Positions 53,454 to 62,927 are shown, numbered from the stretch's first letter. The stretch is 64,000 nucleotides of DNA from a virus (IMGVR_UViG_3300038968_000013:49317-113316), one strand, 5' to 3'. Numbers and translations are program-made. Notes: generated by a model not told the origin, from the letters alone.

Positions 53454-53969
53454 TTAGTTGCTGGGCTCGACGCCATGGAGGATCGGCGGGGCGAGACGCG
53501 TTGGCGTCGGCGTCGGCGTAGCACTCCGAGTAGGCGTTGTTGTTGCCACGGGCGTTACCGTCCGCGTGCTTGTTGGCGTTGCGGTGGCTGTTGCGGTTGG
53601 CGTTGGTAGCGTCGCGAATCGGTCTGGCGTATCACACGGATCGACGCCACCACACCCGGTACACGATTCACCCGCTGTGTTTGATTGGCACAGGCGGAAA
53701 CGAATAGTGTCACCCGGTGAAGCAAGCGTAGAGAAATCTGCGCAAAGCACGCCCGGTTGTGGTGAAGGGCAAGGTGCTTGAACCGCCAGAACGTTCGTAA
53801 TGACGGTCTGTTGCGTTGGCGTGAGGCGCAGTAGTCGCGCCCCCGTTGCCGAGGAATCGAACGGAGCAAACCTCGCACGAAAGTTTTGATTGGTTTGCGC
53901 GTTAGCAAACTGCGCGAGGTATAGAATGAAAACGATGATCGCAGCTAGTGCGAAAAACAGCTTACGCAT
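53454..53969 (-). CDS. secreted protein with Thr/Pro-rich linker
   Basis: Likely start MRKLFFALAAIIVFILYLAQFANA|Q. The C-terminal stretch is TPTATATATPTSTRTVTPVATTTPTRSATPTPTPT. Confidence 0.4.
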   Translation of the reverse strand: MRKLFFALAAIIVFILYLAQFANAQTNQNFRARFAPFDSSATGARLLRLTPTQQTVITNVLAVQAPCPSPQPGVLCADFSTLASPGDTIRFRLCQSNTAGESCTGCGGVDPCDTPDRFATLPTPTATATATPTSTRTVTPVATTTPTRSATPTPTPTRLAPPILHGVEPSN

Positions 53970-54444
53970 GTGGCTTCTCCATGATCGACTGCACGATCGC
54001 GAGGGAGTTCTTTGCATTGATATGCAGCACGAACAATCCATTCGCCTCGATCCAGTCTTTGGCGTACTTGAGGTAATCGTCCACGAGGATATCTCCCGCG
54101 TGGCAGTATTTGTTCTTCAGGAACGAGCGCCCCACGGTACACATAGTGAAGCCCTTGAAATGCTCCTGGCCCCACGCGATCTTTTGCGCCTCGGACCACC
54201 CACCTTCTGGGCATCCGGTCAGGATCACGGGGCGGTACTTTTGTAGCCCGCGCATGAGATCCCAGGCGTCGGGCATAACGGGCAGCTCCGCGTAGAAGTT
54301 TGGCGCCTTCTCGCGAAGCTTAGCCCAGGCTTCTTCCCAACCGAGTTTTTCCTCGGTTTCCTTCATGGAGCCACCCATGAGGTCGGCGTACGCGCGGTCG
54401 AAATCCGCGAGCACGCCGTCACAGTCGATGAAGATCCGGCGCAT
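53962..54444 (-). CDS. HAD-family 5'(3')-deoxyribonucleotidase-like
   Basis: Likely start MRRIFIDCDGVLADFD, a HAD motif I of the NT5C type. Confidence 0.55.
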   Translation of the reverse strand: MRRIFIDCDGVLADFDRAYADLMGGSMKETEEKLGWEEAWAKLREKAPNFYAELPVMPDAWDLMRGLQKYRPVILTGCPEGGWSEAQKIAWGQEHFKGFTMCTVGRSFLKNKYCHAGDILVDDYLKYAKDWIEANGLFVLHINAKNSLAIVQSIMEKPHA

Positions 54445-54582
54445 TACCAAAGCTTGTTCCAGATCTTGCGGTACCGAGCTGCGAGAGTATCGTTGGTGCG
54501 ACCGTCGAACGTTTCGAGCGACCACACGACGATGACGGCGAGGTTCGCCACCACGAATGCTGCACCGATGAATCCCACCATG

Positions 54583-54711
54583 TTACTGTCCTCCCATCCC
54601 TACGATGATGTACTTGAAGTAAGCCGCGCCCGAGATAAACCCGAGCGCGACTCCCACACCCACCGCCACCCCAAACACCACCGACCGAAAAAACGTCTTT
54701 ACGTTGTCCAT
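54583..54711 (-). CDS. small membrane peptide
   Basis: MDNVKTFFRSVVFGVAVGVGVALGFISGAAYFKYIIVGMGG. The start overlaps the SPFH gene stop codon. Confidence 0.3.
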   Translation of the reverse strand: MDNVKTFFRSVVFGVAVGVGVALGFISGAAYFKYIIVGMGGQ

Positions 54712-55796
54712 TACTGTGCCTGCTTCAAGTCGACCATGGGCATCGCGGGACCGGAGACGAGGGAGAGTTTTCCATCCCACTTCCGAATACGTTCCCACTC
54801 GACCAGTGTCGGCGTGATTGACTTGGCGAGGATTTCGTTTGCTTGTGCCTCGGCCTTGGCGCGGATCAGCTGTGCATCGGCTTGTCCTTGAGCGAGCGCC
54901 TTAGCCTGGTCACCCTCGGCTTGCTTGGCGCGCACCATGTTCTCGGCTTGGATTGCAGCCTGTGTCGCGGCGATAGCCTGGTTGACTGCCTGCATGACCT
55001 TATCGTCGACCCGCAGTCCCGAGACGAAGGCGAACGATTCCACCTTGATACCGTCCGGTGCCATACGAGTCTGCAGCTCCTTGAGCACGTTGGCCTCTAG
55101 CTCGCGGCGCCCTTCTCCGAGAATGAGCATCGTGTCCATCGTCTGGCCATAGTGGGCCACGATGTCACGAATCTGAGAGCGCATGTATGTGTGTGTGATG
55201 CGTCCGATGTCCTGGCGGAACTTCACGAAGAGCTGCGGAATCTTCTCCGGTTCCAGCGAGTAGGCCAGGAAGACGTCGGCGTTCACGAGGCTCGACTGCT
55301 TCGAGTTGAACGTGATGCTCTCGTCGCCGGGGGACTCTGGGGTATCGTCCTTGGTGAATACCTGCTGCTGCAGGAAGATCGGGAACAGATGAATCTCGGT
55401 CTTGAAGGGGTTGTACACCTGAATGCCAGTAACGGCAGTCGCGTTAGCAACGCCCTTATCTGAGCCCCAGAGGTTCACCTTGACGCCTACGTAGCCAGGC
55501 GGCACCCGTGTATATCCACAGCCGCTACCTGTCAGCAGAAACGCGGACAGCGCCAGCGGCAGCAGCACGGCGGGGAACGATACCTTACCCACGTTCTCGG
55601 TGAGCCAGGCGAATCCCATGTAGAGTAGCGTCGCGGCCAGCATGAAATCGGCCAGACACACGAGCAGCCCAAAGATAGCGAGGAACGTGCTCTTCGCGGA
55701 CCACATTTCGATCCCGAGCGTCCACACCCCCACGACCACGAGTAGCGCGCAGATGACGCTACCTACGACTTGAACGAGAAACCGCAATCCACTCAT
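54711..55796 (-). CDS. SPFH/band-7 (flotillin/HflK-like) membrane protein
   Basis: N-terminal TM helices followed by an SPFH-like core, then an Ala/Gln-rich coiled-coil tail (AQAENMVRAKQAEGDQAKALAQGQADAQLIRAKAEAQA). Confidence 0.65.
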   Translation of the reverse strand: MSGLRFLVQVVGSVICALLVVVGVWTLGIEMWSAKSTFLAIFGLLVCLADFMLAATLLYMGFAWLTENVGKVSFPAVLLPLALSAFLLTGSGCGYTRVPPGYVGVKVNLWGSDKGVANATAVTGIQVYNPFKTEIHLFPIFLQQQVFTKDDTPESPGDESITFNSKQSSLVNADVFLAYSLEPEKIPQLFVKFRQDIGRITHTYMRSQIRDIVAHYGQTMDTMLILGEGRRELEANVLKELQTRMAPDGIKVESFAFVSGLRVDDKVMQAVNQAIAATQAAIQAENMVRAKQAEGDQAKALAQGQADAQLIRAKAEAQANEILAKSITPTLVEWERIRKWDGKLSLVSGPAMPMVDLKQAQ

Positions 55797-55822
55797 ACCA
55801 TCCTCCCCTTATTGTACTCGGT

Positions 55823-57544
55823 TTACTTAGCCTGCATTCGATACCGCAACTCCGACTCGTGCTGACTTCTCAGCGCGGTAAGGACTTGCGCAGAGTCGAT
55901 TGGAGTGTATAGCTCCCGAACCATGGCGACTCTTTCGTCCCAGCTGCGACTACGAAACGCCTCTGGCTTTTCGTACCATTCTTCGGGCACGTCGAAATCG
56001 CTAGCATTCGCGAGTACCGTATCGATAGTGTTTTTGATTGAACGTCCGGTGAAGTGTTCACTTTGCTTCCTGAAATCCTCGCACTCCATCCCGAGGTCGA
56101 GCCACGTATCCGCCATGTCAAAAGCGGGAGCCTTGTGCTTCGTCTGCGCCCTACGTGGACGGGACAGTGGCTCGTATCTCGTTGATGGAATCTTGACGAT
56201 ACCCTGTTTGGTGGCTTTGCGCAAGAGGAGCGCGATCAGATCCGCGTAATCCTCTGGCGTCTCCGGTCCCATGACTGGAAAGCGCGCGACGAATCGCTGA
56301 CGGAGAGCCGCGTCGGTGGCGGTCGGAGCATTCGTGGCTGCAATTGTGATGTATGAGCCCGAATAGGCTGAACCGACACCAGAGAAGAAATCCATCAGCC
56401 CCTTGAGAATGTCACGATCGCCGCCACCCATGCCGGGAGAGGAACGATCGCCACCCGCGAAGAGCAGATCCACGTCGTCGAGACACATGATCGAGAGACG
56501 ACCCGGATCTCTCAGGTCGTTCAGTAGATCATTTAGAAGCGTAGCTGTTTTGCCATACCATTCCGACTTCACGTCCGATGCACCCAGCGACTTGAAGTAG
56601 GTTGGCATACCGATTTGGTCAGCGCGACGCTGTAGCAGCGTCATCGCCATCCTCATGATACTGCTTTTACCAGTGCCCGGAGGTCCGTCCAGGAGGATGC
56701 TTTCGAGAATACCCCCCATTTCACAAAATGGATTCTTCCCGAGCTGTGGGTCGTAGCACGCGAGACGATCCATTTGCCGCCTGAGCTGTAGTACCGCAGC
56801 GTCGTTGCCGACGATCTCTTCCGGTTGAACCGGGACAAAGGAAACACTTGTAGCATCTTTTGCTTTCTCTACCGTTGTTCCCGTGATGGTGAACTTCTGG
56901 TATCGGAAGGTGACTTGATCGAGAGACGATCCGAGTGTCTTATGAGCACGGGCTTTAATCCGAGCTTGTTCAGCAACCCAGCTCCAGTAGTCGCGAGAAA
57001 TACTAAGCTCGTCGCCAACGATATGGACGATAGGATTGCCGTGCTGATCTTTTGCTTGAATGGCATCGATGTACCGTGCAAGGCAAAGCCCGAGGTCGCC
57101 GTCGATAGATCCACGGATATCTAGCTTCAGGATGCTTGTGTCGAGAGTTGCGAATTGACCTTCCCGACGTCGCAGCAGGCGAGCCGCTTCCACTTGAATG
57201 AAGCTCGCTGCTACGAACGTCGAGTAGGCAGAAATGAATGCTGCGCGTTCTTGAATCTCCGGAGAGATAACGCCACCGCGTGCTTGAAGCTCTTTGGCAG
57301 CCTCGCGCTGCCCGGTGCGTTCCATCAGATGGTCCACGAACCAGTAGTAGAAGCACACGGCTTGCCGAATGAGGAAAACGAGAGCCATTTCCTCAGGCAG
57401 GACTCGCCAGGTCTCTTGTGGCGAGAGGTCTTTCAGAATGTCTTCGAGGTCGCGTTCACCGTCGATCTTGGAGAGCGCCCGTTCGGCGGTCGCAATCCAC
57501 TTATCGAGGTCTTCAGCCTTGATGGGGAGGGCTTCGCGTTCCAT
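55823..57544 (-). CDS. AAA+ ATPase (classic-clade AAA domain) with ~330-aa N-terminal domain of unknown function
   Basis: Walker A LLDGPPGTGKSS, Walker B IMCLDDVDLL and sensor/Arg-finger region IAATNAPTATDAALRQRF. Confidence 0.7.
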   Translation of the reverse strand: MEREALPIKAEDLDKWIATAERALSKIDGERDLEDILKDLSPQETWRVLPEEMALVFLIRQAVCFYYWFVDHLMERTGQREAAKELQARGGVISPEIQERAAFISAYSTFVAASFIQVEAARLLRRREGQFATLDTSILKLDIRGSIDGDLGLCLARYIDAIQAKDQHGNPIVHIVGDELSISRDYWSWVAEQARIKARAHKTLGSSLDQVTFRYQKFTITGTTVEKAKDATSVSFVPVQPEEIVGNDAAVLQLRRQMDRLACYDPQLGKNPFCEMGGILESILLDGPPGTGKSSIMRMAMTLLQRRADQIGMPTYFKSLGASDVKSEWYGKTATLLNDLLNDLRDPGRLSIMCLDDVDLLFAGGDRSSPGMGGGDRDILKGLMDFFSGVGSAYSGSYITIAATNAPTATDAALRQRFVARFPVMGPETPEDYADLIALLLRKATKQGIVKIPSTRYEPLSRPRRAQTKHKAPAFDMADTWLDLGMECEDFRKQSEHFTGRSIKNTIDTVLANASDFDVPEEWYEKPEAFRSRSWDERVAMVRELYTPIDSAQVLTALRSQHESELRYRMQAK

Positions 57545-57663
57545 TAGTACGCCAGGAAGTAGTACACGTTAAGACTGCACGAGCCGAGAAGTAGGAGAAG
57601 CGAGACGCCCGAGACCCACATGAGGGTCGTAAGCGCATCCCCGATGCCACGTCCGTCCATTAC
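57544..57663 (-). CDS. possible 39-aa membrane peptide
   Basis: MDGRGIGDALTTLMWVSGVSLLLLLGSCSLNVYYFLAY sits between the coiled-coil and AAA genes. The upstream part of the track ORF is antisense shadow. Confidence 0.2.
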   Translation of the reverse strand, partial: VMDGRGIGDALTTLMWVSGVSLLLLLGSCSLNVYYFLAY

Positions 57664-58772
57664 TCGTGCCGTACGCCTTCGTGAGCCTCGCGCTCGACGT
57701 CCGCAAACTCTTTGAGGAAGTCGTTGACGTGACCGGTAAGCTGTTGCAGCAGCTCCCGCGAACGCTCTGGGCTGATTGCCGCGTGCTTGAGGCGCTGTGC
57801 CGCGATTTCGAGTGCCGCTCCTGCCACCGCCACGTTGTGATCCGTGATCACTTCCACGGAACGGTTGAGCGCAGGATCGACCGCCTGGTAGCGTTCCAGC
57901 TGAGCGCGCGCACGCACTGCCGTCATGGAGTTTTCGAGCACGACGGCCAGGTTCTGCCACTTCTCCAGCAGGTTCCGACGCATGCCGTGAACCGACTCGA
58001 TGGAGAGCGCAGCTGCATCCTTCGACTTCTGCAGCGTGGGGATGGCGCGCTGAGCCTCGGTGACGATGGTAATGAATTCCATCACGTCGAGACGCACCTT
58101 CTCCAGGTCACGCTTCAGAGCTTCGAATTCGGCTTCCTTCGCGGGCCGATCCTTCTGCTCGATGGTTCCGGACTTCAGCTCCAGGTCGAGCGCATTGTAG
58201 CGCCCTTCCAGCTCTGCTCTGCGCTGTTCCGCTTGGAGTTGACGCGGGGTCGCTTCCTTGAGCTTGGACAATACGGTATCGATGCTCTTCCCGTACGACT
58301 CGACGTTGGACACGTACTCCGCTTCTACCGTCCCCAACTTCTCGATCGTCTCCTGCACGAAGGTCTCGACTTCGCGACACGCCTCTTCGACCGAGGCAGT
58401 GTCGAGCCGCGAAACACGGAGCGCCTGAGCCTTGTTCATCGCCTTGTCGGAGAACTGCCCGAGGAACGCCAGGGTCTTTTCCTTGACGCCCCGGAATTCG
58501 CCCGACCGCGCGATTTGCAGCCCGATGGCCTCGATGCGCTGAATCACGTCAGAGCACAACGCCCGAAGCTCCTGCTCCATGGCGGCGCCCTTCTCGTGTG
58601 CGTCGGCCAACTTCTGGCTACCGTGCGTGACGCGTTGCTTGCCCTGCTTGACCTCGGTGGCTTGCCGTTCCTGCTTGATGTCCAGGTCCGAAATCACCGT
58701 GTCGTTCTGCAGCGATTCGCGGATAGCTGCCCGCCCGGTACGCTGCGCCGTTTGTTCCCTCACTTGCGCCAC
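57660..58772 (-). CDS. all-helical coiled-coil protein (TelA/YaaN-like?)
   Basis: 370 aa. GTG start with a GGAGGTGG RBS. Long heptad-like Glu/Arg/Leu-rich segments. The family assignment is tentative. Confidence 0.45.
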   Translation of the reverse strand: MAQVREQTAQRTGRAAIRESLQNDTVISDLDIKQERQATEVKQGKQRVTHGSQKLADAHEKGAAMEQELRALCSDVIQRIEAIGLQIARSGEFRGVKEKTLAFLGQFSDKAMNKAQALRVSRLDTASVEEACREVETFVQETIEKLGTVEAEYVSNVESYGKSIDTVLSKLKEATPRQLQAEQRRAELEGRYNALDLELKSGTIEQKDRPAKEAEFEALKRDLEKVRLDVMEFITIVTEAQRAIPTLQKSKDAAALSIESVHGMRRNLLEKWQNLAVVLENSMTAVRARAQLERYQAVDPALNRSVEVITDHNVAVAGAALEIAAQRLKHAAISPERSRELLQQLTGHVNDFLKEFADVEREAHEGVRHE

Positions 58773-58799
58773 TGTGCCACCTCCGTTTGATAGTATGCG

Positions 58800-58925
58800 A
58801 ACATGTTGTTTGTGACCATCTTTTTACCGGTGCTCTAACACTGAGCTACTTCCACATGTGGAAGGCTGGACTTTAACCAGCGACCCCCGGTCCTTCATGA
58901 GAACAGTCAACAGTCGGCTCGCAAG
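58800..58925 (-). ncRNA. Y RNA-like permuted tRNA mimic, E1
   Basis: Reading 5' to 3' on the minus strand, in order: leader GCGAGCCGAC, anticodon-stem 3' strand ACCGG, variable loop GGGTC, T-arm GCTGG TTAAAGT CCAGC, acceptor 3' strand CTTCCAC-A, a 1-nt link, acceptor 5' strand GTGGAAG, TA, D-arm GCTC AGTGTTA GAGC, A, and anticodon-stem 5' strand CCGGT. The 7-bp acceptor and 5-bp anticodon stems are perfectly complementary between the two halves. Confidence 0.5.
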
Positions 58926-59109
58926 CCGTTAACATTGGTCCCGATGCCGTGGACACAACCCCCGGCTCTCCCGCACCAACGCGGTTGTTCTGTGTACATG
59001 TCGGGCTACACCGAATCGTGCTGCCCCGGCCGGGTCAACAGCAGAGATTCATCTGGCAGACATTTAACCAACACGGTCTAGTTTCTGAACTACATCGGGA
59101 AAAGAAAAA

Positions 59110-59246
59110 GCGAGCATGTAGCTTCTTTGAGGAGTGTATTTTTGACGGTTGCTCTACCAACTGAGCTACATTCTTGGTTGCCCTTGAATGGCTGGATTCG
59201 AACCAGCGACCCACTGTGTGTGATAACCCTCAAACGTTCGGCTCGC
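59110..59246 (-). ncRNA. Y RNA-like permuted tRNA mimic, E2
   Basis: Same order as E1. T-arm GCTGG TTCGAAT CCAGC, acceptor halves CATTCAA / AAGAATG (5 of 7 bp) joined by a GGGCAACC loop, and D-arm GCTC AGTTGGTA GAGC. Leader GCGAGC pairs with trailer GCTCGC. Confidence 0.5.
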
Positions 59247-59328
59247 GAAAAATGACCCCGAAGTCATGCTAATTATGCATGAATACTCAGCCTCGATGAG
59301 CATCGGGGAGAGAAGCTGTTTCAAAAAG

Positions 59329-59411
59329 TACCGGTGACAGGATTCGAACCTGCAAGAGTTTCCCCTACTAGTTCCTAAGACTAGCGTGTACGCCAATGCC
59401 ACCTCACCGGC
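59329..59411 (-). tRNA. tRNA-Leu (TAG), class II
   Basis: Manual fold. Acceptor GCCGGTG/CACCGGT, anticodon arm CTAGT CTTAGGA ACTAG, a 13-nt variable arm and T-arm GCAGG TTCGAAT CCTGT. Collinear with E. coli tRNA-Leu. Confidence 0.6.
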
Positions 59412-59421
59412 AAAAAGAAAG

Positions 59422-59531
59422 TGGGTAGGGGTGGAGTTGAACCACCAAGTAAGCTCTCAAGTAGGCATACTCAACTAGTATTTTCAGCCCACCATCCAGC
59501 TATTCTCTGTACAACAAATGTACACCTACCC
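59422..59531 (-). ncRNA. 110-nt tRNA-like RNA (perfect 7-bp acceptor + T-arm, ~35-nt extra internal sequence)
   Basis: 5' GGGTAGG ... GGTGG TTCAACT CCACC CCTACCC A 3'. The D-arm is a 4-6 bp palindrome (G)TGTACA..TGTACA. No canonical anticodon arm could be placed by hand. Confidence 0.35.
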
Positions 59532-59595
59532 ATAGTCTCGGACAACGGATTGCGGTCTCACTGTACCGCGCTTAATCCCCGAGCTTAAAACGGTT

Positions 59596-59650
59596 GGGGC
59601 CAGGCTGGATTCGAACCAGCAGAGAGGGATGGCAAATCCCCCACGAACTG
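59596..59650 (-). ncRNA. tRNA-like 3' module (anticodon-like hairpin GGGGA TTTGCCA TCCCT + T-arm GCTGG TTCGAAT CCAGC + CTGGCCC)
   Basis: No matching 5' acceptor strand either upstream or downstream. It shares a GCTGGCAAAA submotif with E4. Confidence 0.3.
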
Positions 59651-60100
59651 AGCGGATCAAAGCGTGCAAGCTTTTGCCAGCTCAGCGACACTACCCGGTC
59701 TAGACTTCCTCAGCCCGCCGCCATTGCCAACCATGCGACTTACTGACCCCAGAAAACTAACCACGAACATAAAAGTGAAGAGCGAGCTGTCAGCTGGGTA
59801 CCCTTGATCTACTCGTACCGCCCCATTGATGCGAAGGCTTATCAGCTTCGTAGAGGGTATCACCCCAGGTGACTTGTCATCCATCTTACACCCCGGATGC
59901 ATAGGTGTGCTGCCTTCATCGGTGGACCTGACCTTTTCACTACTCAGTTAAACGTTGTTTCGAGGGCGCCTTGTCCGGTCTCCCCCTGGCTTTTTTATCA
60001 AAGTAGAGAACACTCTTCGATTGGCTCGTGGTTCTTGTCCCAGCAATCCTACCCCTCAGTGTGCTAATGAGTCTCAGATCTCAGCCGGGACCAAAACTAT

Positions 60101-60235
60101 ATACCCTGAACGTATGGGCGTCGATGCGGTTTAACGCTCTGCCATTGAGCTAACTCTGCAGGTTAGTGCAGAGCCTGGGACTCGAACCCAGATCTTTCGA
60201 TTATCATTCGAGAACACACCAACAGTCGGCTCAGG
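60101..60235 (-). ncRNA. Y RNA-like permuted tRNA mimic, E3
   Basis: Leader GTTTCACCCTGAGCCGACTGTTG..., T-arm CTGGG TTCGAGT CCCAG, acceptor 3' strand GCTCTGC-A, loop CTAACCT, acceptor 5' strand GCAGAGT, TA, D-arm GCTC AATGGCA GAGC. Head ACCCTGA pairs with tail TCAGGGT. Confidence 0.45.
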
Positions 60236-60284
60236 GTGAAACTTAGATTGTCAAAGAACAAGGTGGAGAACGAGTTACAGAAAG

Positions 60285-60365
60285 CAGGGATTAGTGGGAT
60301 TTGAACCCACATCAGCCGGTTTTTGCCAGCTTCGTCATCCAGTAGCGATAACCCTGCCTAGTTCG
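60285..60365 (-). ncRNA. tRNA-like module E4 (shared leader + T-arm GTGGG TTCAAAT CCCAC)
   Basis: Leader GAGAGCCGAAC matches those of E1-E3. The tRNA-like features are incomplete. Confidence 0.3.
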
Positions 60366-60380
60366 GCTCTCCGGATCTTT

Positions 60381-61043
60381 TTACAGCGCCACTTCGCGTG
60401 GCGTGTGAACTGACGGCATCGTAGCACCGATGGATGGCTTTGTCAAATCCTGATGCTTTGCCATCCAATCCTGCACGAACCAGAGCTGTCCACAGCCGCC
60501 GCCGATGTCGTCCTGTCCCGCAGGATCGAAGCAGCGCACCGAGTACCCGATCGTCTTCATCATGTCCATGAAGTTGGTCGCGAGGGTCCGCTGACGATGA
60601 TTCGCCGCAGCCACGCTCTCGTCCCGCTCACAGATGACGCTGATCGTTGCTTCCCACGTATCCGGGTGAAACAAGCGGCGCAGGTTGTTGACGTCCTGCC
60701 ACGATACGTTACCCGGATGCGCGCAGTAGTTGAAGAACGGGCGGCGCCCGGTGACGTTGTAGAAGCGATTGCCTTGGTACGCGATCTGCGCGAGGTTCAG
60801 CTTTGCCTTGAACGGAATGAGCTGATCGCGCTTCTCGTCGGTGCTCTCATGAACCGAGAATTGCAGCCCGATGGTAGGAATCTTCCGCGCCGCTTCCATG
60901 ATCGGGTCGTAATCGACGTCCGGAGCACTCGTGGAAATGAGCAGCGAGAAGTTCGGGTAGAGGAAGTACAGGTACTCCATCGCCCTGATCAGTTCCTTTT
61001 GGTTGAGCATTTGTTTACACCAATTGTAAGTAAGATAACCCAC
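60381..61043 (-). CDS. hypothetical protein downstream of rsr
   Basis: 220-aa ORF. No motif recognised. Confidence 0.4.
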   Translation of the reverse strand: MGYLTYNWCKQMLNQKELIRAMEYLYFLYPNFSLLISTSAPDVDYDPIMEAARKIPTIGLQFSVHESTDEKRDQLIPFKAKLNLAQIAYQGNRFYNVTGRRPFFNYCAHPGNVSWQDVNNLRRLFHPDTWEATISVICERDESVAAANHRQRTLATNFMDMMKTIGYSVRCFDPAGQDDIGGGCGQLWFVQDWMAKHQDLTKPSIGATMPSVHTPREVAL

Positions 61044-61160
61044 TACCCGGTCGGCTCACCGTATGCCGTTATGTCTGAGACGCGAACATGTAGACGCCTA
61101 GGGCTGTTTTCATTTAGGCAATGGTAACCCTAGAGCTATCGGCTCGCGCGTATCTTGTCG

Positions 61161-62777
61161 TTACAGACCCTTCGCGAACTCCGAGATTAGCTGCGGGGTG
61201 GCAGTGTCGAAGCCCACCACGTCGAGCTGACCCGGATCGTTTGGATCTGCGATGGTGAAGTTGGTCGCAGTCATGCCGACCGTTACCATCTTGCAGTCCT
61301 TCTTGTTCATGCGCGTACGGAACTGGCGCAGAGCAGTGCTCGCGTGCGTGTTCCCGGCCCAAACCTCGTTGTCCGTGATGATCACGAAGCAATCGACGTC
61401 GAGGCTATGCTGCATCGCGTACTTCATTGCGACCGCACCGTCCGTACCACCGAAGTTGGCGTCCTGAGCAGCGCGCGCAGCATCACGGAGCGACATGCCC
61501 GGATGGATACGAAGATCCTTGAAGTGATGCGCGAATCCACCGATGAAATAGTTGCTCTCGGTGTTTGCGATCACGAGCGCCATTGCTGCTGCGCCGATGC
61601 ACGGAGTCAGACCCGGCACGCCCGCGATGCTGCCGCCCGCCATCGAGCCCGAGACGTCGACTCCCAGGAAGAAGTTCTTCCCGGTCGGCTCGACCGCCTT
61701 GAACGCGAGGTAGAACGCCTCGTCGAGGGCCTTGACCACCTTCTGCGAAGGTGTCCAGGTCTTGGACATGTCGCGGGCACCACGCCCCGCCGCGTACGTC
61801 AGGTTCGCAGCCAGGATCTGAATCGGATGCACACGGCCCTTGATGATCGCGTCCTGGTTGCCCAGAAGCTTCACGATGTCCTTCTCGGCCTGCGACAGCG
61901 GCTTCAGCAGTCCGACACGCGTCATGGTCGCCAGGTTGCGGATGACCATGGTGATCCCGCCCGTCGACAGCAGCGCCTCCCAAACCTCTGGAGCGTTCAG
62001 CAGCTGCGTCGGGATGATCTCGCGCGGCAGGTTGAAATCGGTGATCAGCTGCACCGCAGTCTTCACGTCGGCCTTGGTAGCCCCCGTGATTGCCTGCATG
62101 ACACGCGCACCCTCGATCATGTCCGGACCCTTGGTGAAGTCTTCCTTCTTCAGGGCGAACTCGAAGACAGCACGGCGCATAGCATCGTCGGTCTTCGGAT
62201 GCGTCAGACGCAGGAGGTCACGATGCGACCAACCGTCACGCTGCTGGTACTTCACGACCTGCAGTGCCAGCTTGTCGACCGGCTTGGCAAGGTACCAATC
62301 ACGCACCGCGTTCTTCAGCGCACGACCCCAGCCACGATACTGGCGGGCGAAGGCGATGAAATGGAACAGATGCGTTCCAGTACGCGCGACCTTGTGCAGA
62401 TTGGCGAGCGCGTAACGCTTCACGTCGTCGCTACCCTCGGAGGCAGCGTATGCCAGTGCCAGCAGCGCCGGATCGTTCTTCGGCGCGCGACCGTCCTGCG
62501 AAATCTGGACGATCTCGTTGACGAGACGCATGCCATCCTCCAGGAGGCACGCCTTGACGGCGTTCAGGCTCTCCTTGGTGTGCTGGCGCTGGTCAGCGTA
62601 GTACGTCCCACCCTCGGTGCCGAGGATCAGGAAGCGACGCAGATGCATCCAATGCCCGGTGGCAAAAACGTAACCACCCGCATGGTTCTTCACCTGGCGC
62701 GCGTCCAGCGGCTCCGACTCCGGAACCGGCTTCGAAATCTCGTTCAGTAGATAGCTTCCCTTGCGTCCCATCGTCAT
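61161..62777 (-). CDS. rsr: Ro60/Rsr ortholog (TROVE domain + C-terminal vWA/MIDAS domain)
   Basis: GGYVFATGHWMHLRRFLILGTEGGTYYADQRQ...ISQDGRAPKNDPALLALAYAAS aligns with the N-terminus of the Ro sixty-related protein (..RFLILGSEGGTYY..RAPKND). GVDVSGSM is a MIDAS motif. Confidence 0.85.
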   Translation of the reverse strand: MTMGRKGSYLLNEISKPVPESEPLDARQVKNHAGGYVFATGHWMHLRRFLILGTEGGTYYADQRQHTKESLNAVKACLLEDGMRLVNEIVQISQDGRAPKNDPALLALAYAASEGSDDVKRYALANLHKVARTGTHLFHFIAFARQYRGWGRALKNAVRDWYLAKPVDKLALQVVKYQQRDGWSHRDLLRLTHPKTDDAMRRAVFEFALKKEDFTKGPDMIEGARVMQAITGATKADVKTAVQLITDFNLPREIIPTQLLNAPEVWEALLSTGGITMVIRNLATMTRVGLLKPLSQAEKDIVKLLGNQDAIIKGRVHPIQILAANLTYAAGRGARDMSKTWTPSQKVVKALDEAFYLAFKAVEPTGKNFFLGVDVSGSMAGGSIAGVPGLTPCIGAAAMALVIANTESNYFIGGFAHHFKDLRIHPGMSLRDAARAAQDANFGGTDGAVAMKYAMQHSLDVDCFVIITDNEVWAGNTHASTALRQFRTRMNKKDCKMVTVGMTATNFTIADPNDPGQLDVVGFDTATPQLISEFAKGL

Positions 62778-62927
62778 CCCCTCACATTCGGTTATCGGCT
62801 CACACGGTAGGTTTTAAGACACCACTTACCCGGCCCAGCCACGCTTGCGCTTTCGATTCGGCCCGTGTGCTCAGGAAACAGAGCTTATGCTATCCTGATG
62901 GTTGTGTCAAGCGGTCGCGCAGATTTT

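What the first reader, a model, noticed from the sequence alone, without database searches (positions are those of the whole stretch)
59422..59531. 110-nt tRNA-like RNA with perfect acceptor and T-arm but ~35 extra nucleotides
GGGTAGG pairs with CCTACCC, the T-arm GGTGG TTCAACT CCACC is good, and the D-arm is palindromic TGTACA, yet the span is 110 nt. It could be an intron-containing tRNA, a tRNA-Sec-like gene, or another tRNA mimic.
Basis: seen in the sequence. Interest (0 to 1): 0.5.

Follow-up and report, generated by a model that had tools for sequence, protein, structure and literature searches.

The report
tRNA-shaped RNA beside phage Ro60
The 110-base element is a real, strongly conserved RNA gene that keeps two tRNA arms but replaces the anticodon arm with a long rod, and it lies in a phage cluster of Y RNAs beside their partner protein Ro60, so it is most likely a new tRNA-mimicking Y-type RNA rather than a working tRNA.

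Summary
There is a perfect 7-bp acceptor stem with A73, a T arm GGUGG-UUCAACU-CCACC, a 6-bp/5-nt D hairpin, and a 61-nt rod in place of the anticodon arm. ARAGORN and the Rfam tRNA, YrlA and tmRNA models do not call it. It is not an intron-containing tRNA or a tRNA-Sec.

The window is a phage. The element sits 1.6 kb downstream of a Ro60 gene (TROVE+vWA), inside a 2.4-kb array of Y-RNA-type genes. The array holds three YrlA-like units, plain Y RNAs, a second odd 157-nt tRNA-like RNA and a true tRNA-Leu.

The rod carries a bulged helix, GGGC(U)GA / UAUGCCU. It matches the putative Ro60-binding helix of this phage's own Y RNAs, GAGC(C)GA / CAUGUUC.

The acceptor and T arm are identical to those of a metagenomic tRNA-Tyr, so the element is tRNA-derived. 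In a relative with 89%-identical Ro60 it is 110/110 identical, while neighbouring RNAs are 75-87% identical.

Best reading (about 0.5): a Ro60-bound tRNA mimic with normal tRNA topology, which is a new variant of the Y RNA/YrlA kind. Ro60 binding and processing are inferred, and no covariation data exist for this element.

The parts
59525..59531 (-). Acceptor stem, 5' strand (GGGUAGG)
   Evidence: Pairs perfectly (7 Watson-Crick bp) with 59423-59429. The same stem occurs in a metagenomic tRNA-Tyr, L092 271-349.
59508..59524 (-). D-position hairpin UGUACA-UUUGU-UGUACA: 6-bp stem, 5-nt loop, no 8-9 linker, no G18G19
   Evidence: MFE fold. It is non-canonical for a tRNA. A similar 6-bp D stem placed directly after the acceptor is seen in L067 2976-3095.
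59447..59507 (-). 61-nt rod replacing the anticodon stem-loop. Layout: GAG/CUU, 3x2 loop, AGCU/AGCU, 4x4 loop GGAU/UGAG, GGUGGGC/GCCUACU, 5-nt bulge UGAAA, AUACU/AGUAU, loop AGUUG
   Evidence: MFE equals the centroid, and the fold is unchanged when flanks are included.
59484..59493 (-). 5' strand of the Ro60-site-like bulged helix: GGU-GGGC-(U)-GA
   Evidence: Matches the pattern RRGC-(Y)-GA of this phage group's Y RNAs, GAGC(C)GA. It is one of only 5 descriptor hits in the window, and 4 of those lie in the Ro60 cluster.
59460..59469 (-). 3' strand of the bulged helix: UAU-GCCU-ACU
   Evidence: Matches YAY-GYYY of the Y RNAs (CAU-GUUC, UAU-GUUC), with the same G.U and A.A positions next to the bulge.
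59430..59446 (-). T arm GGUGG-UUCAACU-CCACC, with U54, U55, C56, A58 and G53-C61 present
   Evidence: Read directly from the sequence. My class model R1 recognises only this part of the element, at 7.7 bits. It is identical to the T arm of the L092 tRNA-Tyr.
59422..59429 (-). Acceptor 3' strand CCUACCC plus discriminator A (59422). No CCA is encoded. A 10-nt U-rich spacer follows, then tRNA-Leu.
59534..59585 (-). 52-nt bulged hairpin immediately upstream (CUCGG-GGAUU-AAGC-GCGGU-loop-ACCGC-AAUCC-GUUGU-CCGAG), co-conserved with the 110-nt RNA
   Evidence: Fold. It is 49/50 identical in L005, and the single change falls in a bulge. Its function is unknown.
61161..62777 (-). Context: phage Ro60 gene (TROVE + Ro60 vWA domains), the presumed protein partner
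   Evidence: Pfam PF05731 at 2.2e-42 and PF25045 at 8.5e-49. PHROG 850. 42-48% identical to Ro-like proteins of actinophages.
59329..59411 (-). Context: genuine tRNA-Leu(UAG), 10 nt downstream of the element
   Evidence: ARAGORN. Rfam 45.1 bits.
59594..59750 (-). Context: second non-canonical tRNA-topology RNA (157 nt). It has an 8-bp acceptor, a D arm with GG, a T arm, a long variable arm, and a 72-nt arm carrying Y-RNA sequence.
   Evidence: Fold. ARAGORN calls it only with intron mode at a relaxed threshold. It shares the 12-mer GACCGGGUAGUG with a plain Y RNA unit.
58794..59249 (-). Context: two YrlA-like Y RNAs (about 59249-59107 and 58925-58794)
   Evidence: Rfam YrlA at 35.9 and 40.4 bits, below the gathering score of 69. 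Ro-helix descriptor.
60103..60374 (-). Context: two further Y RNA units (about 60374-60262 with an inner T arm; 60237-60103 YrlA-like)
   Evidence: Rfam YrlA 26.5 bits, weak tRNA and Deinococcus Y RNA hits. GAGCCGA motifs. Descriptor.

Best explanation
The element is a tRNA-derived, non-decoding small RNA gene that belongs to the phage's Ro60/Y-RNA module.

It keeps the tRNA acceptor stem, discriminator A73 and T arm, which are identical to those of a phage-type tRNA-Tyr found in a metagenome. It has a compact D hairpin. Instead of an anticodon stem-loop it has a 61-nt rod containing a bulged helix of the type that Ro60 proteins recognise in Y RNAs.

Proposed mechanism:
1. It is transcribed with its neighbours as part of the ncRNA array.
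2. Host RNase P cuts at its 5' end and at the 5' end of the tRNA-Leu 10 nt downstream. The 3' trailer is then trimmed and CCA may be added.
3. The phage Ro60 ring binds the bulged helix GGGC(U)GA/UAUGCCU in the rod.
4. The tRNA-like end is left free to engage a tRNA-recognising factor. The RNA would then act like other Y RNAs, as a tether, gate or decoy that directs Ro60 (and possibly host PNPase) or protects the complex.

Shown here: the structure, the tRNA ancestry, the genomic context, the motif match and the extreme conservation. Inferred: expression, processing, Ro60 binding and the partner of the tRNA-like end.
For: - Real structure: the cloverleaf-plus-rod MFE has z = -3.67. The descriptor's false-positive rate is 0.03 per window.
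- Context: Ro60 (TROVE+vWA) lies at 61161-62777 on the same strand. Sub-threshold YrlA hits lie at 58806-58901, 59123-59234 and 60115-60214. Six of the 11 GAGCCGA matches in the window lie on the minus strand between 58.9 and 61.2 kb, and a seventh lies just upstream of Ro60.
- Literature fit: Y RNAs are known to be encoded within about 2 kb of Ro60 and to mimic tRNA (PMC4201824). A phage Ro60 has been shown to bind phage Y-like RNAs and host PNPase (PMC12135203).
- Motif: the Ro-helix descriptor gives 5 hits in the window, 4 of them in this cluster and one inside the rod. Random windows give 0.87 hits, or 0.18 when the two strands are at most 60 nt apart. The helix shares the bulge, the G.U and the A.A positions with the phage's own Y RNAs.
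- Precedent for the architecture: about 11 of 80 IMG/VR Ro60 loci carry 120-170-nt RNAs with open acceptor stems, canonical D and T arms, and a Ro helix in the anticodon arm. In those, 6 of 7 acceptor pairs show compensatory changes.
- tRNA descent: the acceptor, A73 and T arm are the same as in the L092 tRNA-Tyr.
- Constraint: the element is 110/110 identical in L005, against 86.7% for tRNA-Leu and 74-85% for the Y RNAs.
Against: - There is no covariation evidence for this element. Its only homolog is identical, and pattern scans of IMG/VR, JGI metagenomes and GTDB genomes found no other copy.
- It fails every model tried: Rfam tRNA and YrlA and my model of the open-acceptor class.
- It lacks the GGUUAUC box that follows the Ro motif in the other units.
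- Its bulged base is U rather than C.
- The helix has the opposite polarity, relative to the tRNA body, to that in YrlA and in the IMG/VR class.
- The Ro-helix descriptor was written after I had seen the element, so its statistics are optimistic.
- The 100% identity could reflect a recent recombination block rather than selection. The identity continues 24 nt into tRNA-Leu and starts exactly at the upstream hairpin.
- Expression and binding are untested.
Confidence: 0.5

Rival explanations
1. A tRNA-derived mimic that works independently of Ro60. It could be a decoy for host tRNA-directed defence nucleases or tRNA-binding enzymes. It could also be simply an RNase P / 3'-processing 'punctuation' element that releases the neighbouring Y RNAs and tRNA-Leu from a long precursor.
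For: - The acceptor and T arm are intact and tRNA-derived.
- It abuts a real tRNA.
- It fails the YrlA and open-acceptor class models and lacks the GGUUAUC box.
- The Ro-motif evidence is post hoc.
Against: - A pure processing signal would not need a 61-nt rod conserved base for base.
- The rod's bulged helix matches the local Y RNAs in four specific features.
- The element is embedded inside the Ro60 array, not in the phage's other tRNA group at 40.8 kb.
Confidence: 0.27
2. A decaying tRNA pseudogene: a former tRNA-Tyr that suffered an insertion in the anticodon arm and has no function.
For: - It shares acceptor and T arm with a tRNA-Tyr.
- It has lost the canonical D loop and anticodon loop.
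- No tRNA tool calls it.
Against: - It is 110/110 identical in a relative where the functional tRNA-Leu next to it has 11 substitutions.
- The inserted segment forms a stable, almost continuous helix (z = -3.67).
- Phage genomes rarely keep dead sequence.
Confidence: 0.08
3. A decoding tRNA after all: intron-containing, tRNA-Sec-like, or a tRNA with an elongated anticodon stem whose apical loop UAGUUGA would read as GUU.
For: The apical 7-nt loop UAGUUGA has Y32, R37 and A38 and could be read as anticodon GUU (sequence).
Against: - Position 33 is A, not U.
- The anticodon would sit about 16 bp too far from the elbow for the ribosome.
- ARAGORN in intron mode and the Rfam tRNA model find nothing for this element.
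- The arrangement is 7/5 rather than 8/5, with no UCA anticodon and no variable arm.
- Forty nucleotides cannot be a group I intron, and bacteria lack the bulge-helix-bulge splicing system (established knowledge).
Confidence: 0.03
4. A DNA-level or chance feature: an inverted-repeat-rich recombination or attachment site, or a mosaic junction block, with no RNA product.
For: - The block of identity with L005 starts at a mosaic junction and ends inside tRNA-Leu.
- Phage attachment sites often overlap tRNA-like sequence (established knowledge).
Against: - The combination of T-loop consensus, a 7-bp acceptor immediately after the T stem, and A73 is specific to tRNA-like RNAs. It is expected 0.03 times per window.
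- It lies on the same strand, and in series with, eight other RNA genes.
Confidence: 0.05

Closest known systems
YrlA (Rfam RF02553), the tRNA-mimicking bacterial/phage Y RNAs bound by Ro60/Rsr (Chen et al. 2014, PMC4201824; Wang et al. 2018, bioRxiv 10.1101/312249)
   Same: - It is encoded within 2 kb of a Ro60 gene, on the same strand, alongside other Y RNAs.
- It contains a tRNA-type T arm and acceptor helix.
- It carries a bulged helix of the Ro-binding type.
- It has no anticodon.
   Different: - YrlA is a circularly permuted tRNA: the acceptor is closed by a loop and the 5'/3' ends form the Ro-binding stem. Here the acceptor is open, as in a real tRNA, and the Ro-like helix sits in a hairpin-closed anticodon arm.
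- The polarity of the helix relative to the tRNA body is reversed.
- The D arm is non-canonical, whereas YrlA has GCUCAGUUGGUAGAGC.
- There is no GGUUAUC box.
- The RF02553 model gives no match for it in the E<=10 search.
Open-acceptor, tRNA-topology Ro-helix RNAs next to Ro60 in IMG/VR phage contigs
   Same: - Normal tRNA order: acceptor, D, long arm, T, acceptor.
- The long arm replaces the anticodon stem-loop and carries a Ro-type bulged helix.
- Placed in tandem arrays beside Ro60.
   Different: - In those RNAs the helix reads CUUGCCC-cap-GGGC(C)GA...GGUUAUC, so the side where Y RNAs have their termini is capped.
- They have canonical D arms and are 120-170 nt long.
- They lie upstream of Ro60.
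- The model built from them (R1) matches only the T arm of the 110-nt element.
Deinococcus radiodurans Yrn1 (Rfam RF01053)
   Same: It is a Ro60-bound RNA with D-like then T-like arms in tRNA order and a stem-loop at the anticodon position, as described in PMC4201824.
   Different: - In Yrn1 the Ro-binding stem is formed by the RNA termini, at the acceptor position. Here the termini form a plain 7-bp acceptor and the Ro-like helix is in the arm.
- RF01053 gives no match for the element.
Canonical tRNA, specifically the bacterial/phage tRNA-Tyr (L092 271-349)
   Same: The acceptor stem, A73 and T arm are identical.
   Different: - There is no anticodon loop and no variable arm.
- The D hairpin is 6 bp with a 5-nt loop and lacks G18G19.
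- There are 61 nt where a tRNA has 17.
- It is not matched by RF00005 or called by ARAGORN.

Membership tests
tRNA (RF00005 / ARAGORN) | Scores above threshold with a tRNA covariance model or ARAGORN | tested here: not met
   ARAGORN at default makes no call. Rfam at gathering threshold gives no call. No Rfam tRNA match for the element with E up to 10 in the search of 58800-60400.
tRNA (RF00005 / ARAGORN) | 7-bp acceptor stem followed by a discriminator base, and a T arm (5 bp, loop UUCRANN) directly 5' of the acceptor 3' strand | tested here: met
   GGGUAGG/CCUACCC plus A; GGUGG-UUCAACU-CCACC.
tRNA (RF00005 / ARAGORN) | 5-bp anticodon stem with a 7-nt loop containing U33 and an anticodon | tested here: not met
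   A 61-nt rod occupies this position. The apical loop is AGUUG, or UAGUUGA with A at position 33.
tRNA (RF00005 / ARAGORN) | D arm with a 3-4-bp stem, A14 and G18G19 for the elbow | tested here: not met
   6-bp stem UGUACA/UGUACA with loop UUUGU, no 8-9 linker and no GG.
Intron-containing tRNA | Removing an insert at or near position 37/38 leaves a canonical anticodon arm, and the insert is a group I intron or bulge-helix-bulge substrate | tested here: not met
   ARAGORN -i at default gives nothing. At relaxed thresholds it gives only an unrelated 85-nt call. The insert is about 40 nt with no residual anticodon arm (sequence).
tRNA-Sec | 8/5 (bacterial) acceptor/T arrangement, UCA anticodon, long variable arm | tested here: not met
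   The arrangement is 7/5, there is no UCA loop, and no variable arm lies between the rod and the T arm. The 6-bp D stem is the only shared trait.
tmRNA | tRNA-like domain plus a tag-peptide reading frame, detected by ARAGORN or RF00023 | tested here: not met
   ARAGORN -m gives nothing even at ps80. No RF00023 match here.
YrlA (RF02553) | Matches the YrlA covariance model | tested here: not met
   No match for this element at E up to 10, although three neighbouring units match at 26-40 bits.
YrlA (RF02553) | Permuted topology: acceptor-like stem closed by a loop, with the 5'/3' ends forming the Ro-binding stem | tested here: not met
   The acceptor is open and the arm is closed by a loop.
Y RNA (functional class) | Encoded close to (within about 2 kb of) a Ro60 gene | tested here: met
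   1.6 kb downstream of Ro60, on the same strand, inside the array.
Y RNA (functional class) | Conserved bulged helix recognised by Ro60: 5' GGUC(C)GA / 3' UUGACC in animals, the GNCGAA motif in bacteria | tested here: inconclusive
   GGGC(U)GA / UAUGCCU matches the local consensus GAGC(C)GA / CAUGUUC in the core pairing, the single-base bulge, and the G.U and A.A positions.
Y RNA (functional class) | Physically bound by Ro60 | not testable with these tools
   Needs EMSA or RIP with the protein encoded at 61161-62777.
   Only a T-arm fragment matches, at 7.7 bits and E = 3.3.

The most novel reading that the evidence does not exclude
The 110-nt RNA, its 157-nt neighbour and the IMG/VR open-acceptor RNAs together define an undescribed architecture: a true-topology tRNA whose anticodon arm has been replaced by a Ro60-binding helix. 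The ends would be processed by RNase P, CCA would be added, and the RNA might even be charged, given that its acceptor and A73 are those of a tRNA-Tyr. Such an RNA would physically couple the phage Ro60 ring, and the nucleases it recruits, to the host's tRNA-handling machinery: synthetase, EF-Tu, CCA-adding enzyme, or tRNA-targeting defence nucleases. That would give Y RNAs a defined effector partner and give phages a way to sense or counter tRNA-directed immunity.
Probability: 0.25. Interest if true: 0.75.

Novelty: new variant of a known kind. Interest (0 to 1): 0.55.

Why it matters
The function of the tRNA-like module of bacterial Y RNAs has been an open question since 2014. The known examples (YrlA) are permuted tRNAs without free ends. 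That led to the view that they cannot behave as tRNAs in processing, CCA addition or charging.

An RNA with a normal open acceptor stem, tRNA-Tyr ancestry and a Ro-type helix in place of the anticodon would be a natural test case. Its ends can be mapped. Its charging can be assayed. Its Ro60 binding can be mutated at one bulged base.

There is also a practical point. About one in seven IMG/VR Ro60 loci carries long RNAs that the Rfam tRNA model scores as tRNAs with large insertions. Annotation pipelines may label these as intron-containing tRNAs or miss them altogether.

If the Ro60 link is wrong, the element is still an unusually conserved phage tRNA mimic of unknown role.

Tried and rejected
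- **Standard tRNA, intron, tmRNA and mitochondrial modes of ARAGORN**. Only relaxed thresholds gave calls, and those had different, unconvincing boundaries. Rejected.
- **Rfam, gathering and E<=10 modes**. Nothing matched this element, so a known family is rejected.
- **Sequence homologs.** blastn against INPHARED phages found only the tRNA-Leu. nhmmer against 80 IMG/VR Ro60 loci found only L005. Exact or degenerate pattern scans of IMG/VR, JGI metagenomes and GTDB genomes found nothing for the rod or the hairpin. The T-arm pattern found four contigs, of which only the L092 tRNA-Tyr is related. As a result no covariation test was possible.
- **Hypothesis that the element is a circular permutation of YrlA**, i.e. 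a member of the 'capped' class seen in IMG/VR. Rejected because the helix polarity is opposite and model R1 does not match.
- **Finding more relatives through neighbouring proteins.** The 370-aa protein has no informative homologs. Ro60 has only three relatives at 65% identity or above.
- **The L003 relative (Ro60 65% identical).** It has no copy of the 110-nt RNA. Its possible homolog of the 157-nt RNA is too diverged to align reliably.
- **Cultured phages** Catera, Sparky, Cashline and Phosso. None has a long tRNA-topology element beside Ro60 by my descriptor.
- **The 55-aa ORF on the plus strand (59421-59588)** that overlaps the element. I regard it as spurious, because coding constraint would not give 100% nucleotide identity.
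- **Promoter and terminator scans** were uninformative.

Full report

Yes, but the RNA reads on the minus strand. From 59531 down to 59422 the sequence is:

GGGUAGG | UGUACA-UUUGU-UGUACA | 61-nt arm | GGUGG-UUCAACU-CCACC | CCUACCC | A

- The acceptor is seven perfect Watson-Crick pairs.
- The T loop has U54, U55, C56 and A58, and the T stem has G53-C61.
- The T stem abuts the acceptor 3' strand exactly as in a tRNA.
- RNAfold returns this cloverleaf with a long rod as both the minimum-free-energy structure and the centroid. Energy is -42.5 kcal/mol, z = -3.67, and no shuffle of 200 folds as well.
- The fold does not change when flanks are added.
- A descriptor of my own (7-bp acceptor, adjacent T arm with UUCRA, a D stem, 95-200 nt overall) gives 0.03 hits per random window counting both strands.

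The feature is therefore not a chance arrangement.

**2. It is not a standard or intron-containing tRNA, a tRNA-Sec, or a tmRNA.**

- ARAGORN finds three tRNAs in the window: Asp, Gly and Leu(UAG). Leu lies at 59329-59411, only 10 nt downstream of the element. ARAGORN does not call the element.
- Intron, tmRNA and mitochondrial modes also fail. Only at relaxed thresholds does ARAGORN offer a different 85-nt call.
- Rfam gives nothing at gathering thresholds. It also gives no tRNA, YrlA or tmRNA match for this element with E up to 10.
- The extra nucleotides are all in the anticodon arm, which is an almost continuous helix:
  - GAG/CUU
  - a 3x2 internal loop
  - AGCU/AGCU
  - a 4x4 internal loop GGAU/UGAG
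  - GGUGGGC/GCCUACU
  - a 5-nt bulge
  - AUACU/AGUAU closed by AGUUG
- There is no 7-nt loop with U33, no variable arm and no UCA.
- The acceptor/T arrangement is 7/5.
- The D hairpin (6 bp, 5-nt loop, no G18G19) is non-canonical.

**3. Context decides the reading.**

The window is a tailed phage, with portal, large terminase and major head protein identified.

The ORF at 61161-62777 on the minus strand is a Ro60 protein. It matches Pfam TROVE at 2.2e-42 and Ro60 vWA at 8.5e-49. It is 42-48% identical to the 'Ro-like RNA binding proteins' of Gordonia, Mycobacterium and Microbacterium phages.

The 2.4 kb downstream of it, on the same strand, is an array of small RNA genes.

- Rfam in E-value mode finds three sub-threshold YrlA matches: 58806-58901 at 40 bits, 59123-59234 at 36 bits, and 60115-60214 at 26.5 bits.
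- Reading the sequences of this phage and two relatives shows the unit signature:
  - The 5' strand is NN-GAGC-(C)-GA[A/C], followed 7-12 nt later by GGUUAUC.
  - The 3' strand is C-A-[U/C]-GUUC-NN.
  - This is the bulged helix that Ro60 recognises in animal Y RNAs: GGUC(C)GA / UUGACC, followed in hY1 by GGUAGUGAGUUAUC. Those sequences are from my own knowledge. The role of the helix and the CGAA motif is described in PMC4201824 and PMC12135203.
- The units lie at about 61151-61079, 61062 onward, 60374-60262, 60237-60103, 59249-59107 and 58925-58794.
- Between them lie a 157-nt odd tRNA-like RNA (59750-59594), a 52-nt bulged hairpin (59585-59534), the 110-nt element, and tRNA-Leu.

**4. The rod carries a Ro-type helix.**

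Within the 61-nt arm, GGU-GGGC-(U)-GA (59493-59484) faces UAU-GCCU-ACU (59469-59460).

This reproduces the local Y-RNA helix feature by feature:
- a four-pair core;
- a single bulged pyrimidine;
- a G.U pair next to the bulge;
- an A opposite an A;
- the YAY triplet;
- a three-pair extension.

I ran a descriptor encoding those features over the whole window. It found nothing on the plus strand and five hits on the minus strand. Four of them are in the Ro60 cluster, and one is inside this arm. Random windows give 0.87 hits, or 0.18 if the two strands are at most 60 nt apart.

I wrote the descriptor after seeing the element, so I treat this as suggestive support and not proof.

Differences from the other units:
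- the bulged base is U, not C;
- there is no GGUUAUC box;
- the helix is oriented with the tRNA body on the side where Y RNAs have their termini. This is the opposite of YrlA.

**5. There is precedent for tRNA-topology RNAs with a Ro helix.**

I fetched 80 IMG/VR loci encoding Ro60. In them the tRNA-topology descriptor found many 120-170-nt elements just upstream of Ro60, on the same strand and often in tandem.

Each element has:
- its own 7-8-bp open acceptor stem;
- a canonical D arm (GCUCAGUUGGUAGAGC);
- a T arm;
- a long arm reading ...CUUGCCC-cap-GGGC(C)GA.G...GGUUAUC...

About 11 loci have such elements. In an alignment of 11 of them, six of the seven acceptor pairs show compensatory double changes.

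The Rfam tRNA model scores several of them as tRNAs with large insertions.

[quoted passage not shown] In four literature searches I found no description of the open-acceptor form. One preprint does speculate that some annotated tRNAs next to the Ro60-like gene of phage Bas63 may be Y RNAs (PMC11482910). The library I could search is incomplete; for example, the 2020 Annual Review on bacterial Ro60 was not held.

A covariance model of this class (R1) matches only the T arm of the 110-nt element, at 7.7 bits and E = 3.3. The element is therefore not a member of that class. It shares the design principle, but with the helix polarity reversed.

**6. Origin.**

A scan of JGI metagenomes for the T arm plus flanking bases returned four contigs. 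One of them, L092, holds a tRNA-Tyr(GUA) that passes the Rfam threshold at 37.3 bits. It has the same acceptor stem, the same A73 and the same T arm as the element. The six further matching bases beyond the search pattern would be expected by chance about once in 1000, given four hits.

The element is therefore most simply a tRNA (Tyr-like) gene whose D arm and anticodon arm were remodelled.

**7. Conservation.**

Only three Ro60 relatives at 65% identity or above exist in the 5.8-billion-protein collection.

- Contigs with the identical protein carry identical DNA.
- In contig L005, whose Ro60 is 89% identical, the identities are:

| Segment | Identity to L005 |
|---|---|
| 110-nt element | 110/110 |
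| Upstream hairpin | 49/50 (the change is in a bulge) |
| tRNA-Leu | 86.7% (compensatory changes in its anticodon stem) |
| Y RNA units | 74.5-84.9% |
| 3' end of the Ro60 gene | 90.4% |

At 10% divergence the chance of no change in 110 nt is about 1e-5. This points to strong constraint.

A recent recombination block is the alternative. The identity starts exactly at a mosaic junction and continues through the first 24 nt of tRNA-Leu.

Because the only homolog is identical, no covariation test of the rod is possible. The more distant relative L003 lacks the element.

**8. Mechanism proposed.**

Shown here:
- a tRNA-derived fold with an open acceptor stem;
- a position in series with Y RNAs and a tRNA, 1.6 kb from Ro60;
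- a Ro-type bulged helix in the arm;
- extreme conservation.

Inferred:
1. Co-transcription with the array. A weak promoter-like site lies at 59793-59766.
2. 5' maturation by RNase P, and release from tRNA-Leu by RNase P cleavage 10 nt downstream.
3. 3' trimming and CCA addition. [quoted passage not shown]
4. Binding of the phage Ro60 to the bulged helix.
5. Presentation of the tRNA-like end to a tRNA-recognising partner.

A phage Ro60 is known to bind phage Y-like RNAs and assemble with host PNPase (PMC12135203). A tether or decoy role during infection is therefore the most economical guess.

I put about 0.5 on this full statement. I put about 0.85 on the weaker statement that this is a functional, non-decoding, tRNA-derived RNA gene of the Ro60 array.

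**9. Rivals.**

| Rival | Confidence |
|---|---|
| Ro60-independent tRNA decoy or processing element | 0.27 |
| Decaying tRNA pseudogene | 0.08 |
| DNA-level or chance feature | 0.05 |
| Decoding, intron-containing or Sec tRNA | 0.03 |

The evidence for and against each is given in the Rival explanations section.

**10. Verdict.**

The element is a new variant of a known kind, the Y RNA / tRNA-mimic family. It has an architecture I could not find described: normal tRNA topology, with a Ro-type helix of reversed polarity in place of the anticodon arm.

Interest is moderate to good. It offers a directly testable handle on what the tRNA-like part of Y RNAs is for. The key steps, expression and Ro60 binding, remain untested.

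Noticed in passing
window 59594-59750 (minus strand): A second non-canonical tRNA-topology RNA of 157 nt. It has an 8-bp acceptor GGGGUCAG/CUGGCCCC, a D arm with GG, a T arm GCUGG-UUCGAAU-CCAGC, and a long variable arm. Its 72-nt anticodon arm has a base, GGGCUGAG/CUCAGUUC, that looks like a Ro helix without the bulge. The arm contains the 12-mer GACCGGGUAGUG, shared with a plain Y RNA unit (window 61057 onward; L005 1776 onward). It looks like a Y RNA grafted into a class II tRNA. It is absent from L005, and a diverged possible homolog lies at L003 10133-10268.
   Followed up: partly
window 59534-59585 (minus strand): A 52-nt three-segment bulged hairpin lies directly upstream of the 110-nt RNA. 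It is 49/50 identical in L005, and the one change is in a bulge. Its base, CUCGG(G)GA / UGU-CCGAG, faintly resembles a Ro helix. Pattern scans found no copy elsewhere.
   Followed up: partly
window 58794-61151 (minus strand): The whole 2.4-kb stretch downstream of Ro60 is an array of at least nine small RNA genes: plain Y RNAs, three YrlA-like units below the Rfam threshold, two tRNA-topology oddities, a hairpin and tRNA-Leu. Another GAGCCGA motif lies at 62795-62801, just upstream of the Ro60 start.
   Followed up: partly
window 60381-61062 (minus strand): The 5' half of a Y RNA (GGUGAGC(C)GACCGGGUAGUGGGUUAUC..., 61062-61011) is followed at once by a 209-aa ORF with no known domains. A sequence able to form the matching 3' strand (CGUCAGUUCACACG) lies near the ORF's end, at about 60398-60412. 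In L005 the same Y RNA is intact and the ORF is absent. Either the ORF was inserted into a Y RNA gene, or an mRNA is flanked by a Ro-binding stem.
   Followed up: no
L010-L089 (IMG/VR Ro60 loci), e.g. L067 2976-3746, L043 3433-3837, L022 1663-2016, L046 3532-3804, L060 3507-3628, L066 3195-3317: About 11 of 80 viral Ro60 loci carry tandem 120-170-nt RNAs with open, covarying acceptor stems, canonical D and T arms, and an anticodon arm reading CUUGCCC-cap-GGGC(C)GA..GGUUAUC. This is a tRNA-topology (un-permuted) form of YrlA. The Rfam tRNA model scores several of them as tRNAs with big insertions. I found no description of this form in the searchable literature.
   Followed up: partly
L092 271-349: A metagenomic phage-like contig has a tRNA-Tyr(GUA) with exactly the acceptor stem, A73 and T arm of the 110-nt RNA. 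ARAGORN misses it at default settings; Rfam scores it 37.3 bits.
   Followed up: yes
L090 6336-6513: Inside a 14-tRNA array of a JGI contig lies a 178-nt tRNA-topology element (acceptor UGAGAGG/CCUCUCA) with the same T arm as the finding. Its roughly 100-nt insertion contains GGCGAAAG and GGUUCUAUC motifs reminiscent of Y RNAs. The 7.6-kb contig holds no Ro60 gene.
   Followed up: no
window 59329-59411 versus L005 2676-2758: Between the two phages, all 11 differences in tRNA-Leu(UAG) are packed into 45 nt: the anticodon stem (fully compensatory, GCUAG/CUAGU versus GUCGG/CCGAU), position 37, the variable arm and the T loop. The rest of the tRNA is identical. This is an unusually localised pattern for a tRNA that keeps the same anticodon.
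   Followed up: no
window 53454-58772 (minus strand): Downstream of the RNA array lie a 370-aa protein with no detectable family, an AAA ATPase (573 aa), an SPFH/Band 7 protein (361 aa) and an NT5C-like nucleotidase. The SPFH and NT5C genes recur next to the Ro60/Y-RNA module in the 65% relative L003, so they may form one functional island.
   Followed up: no
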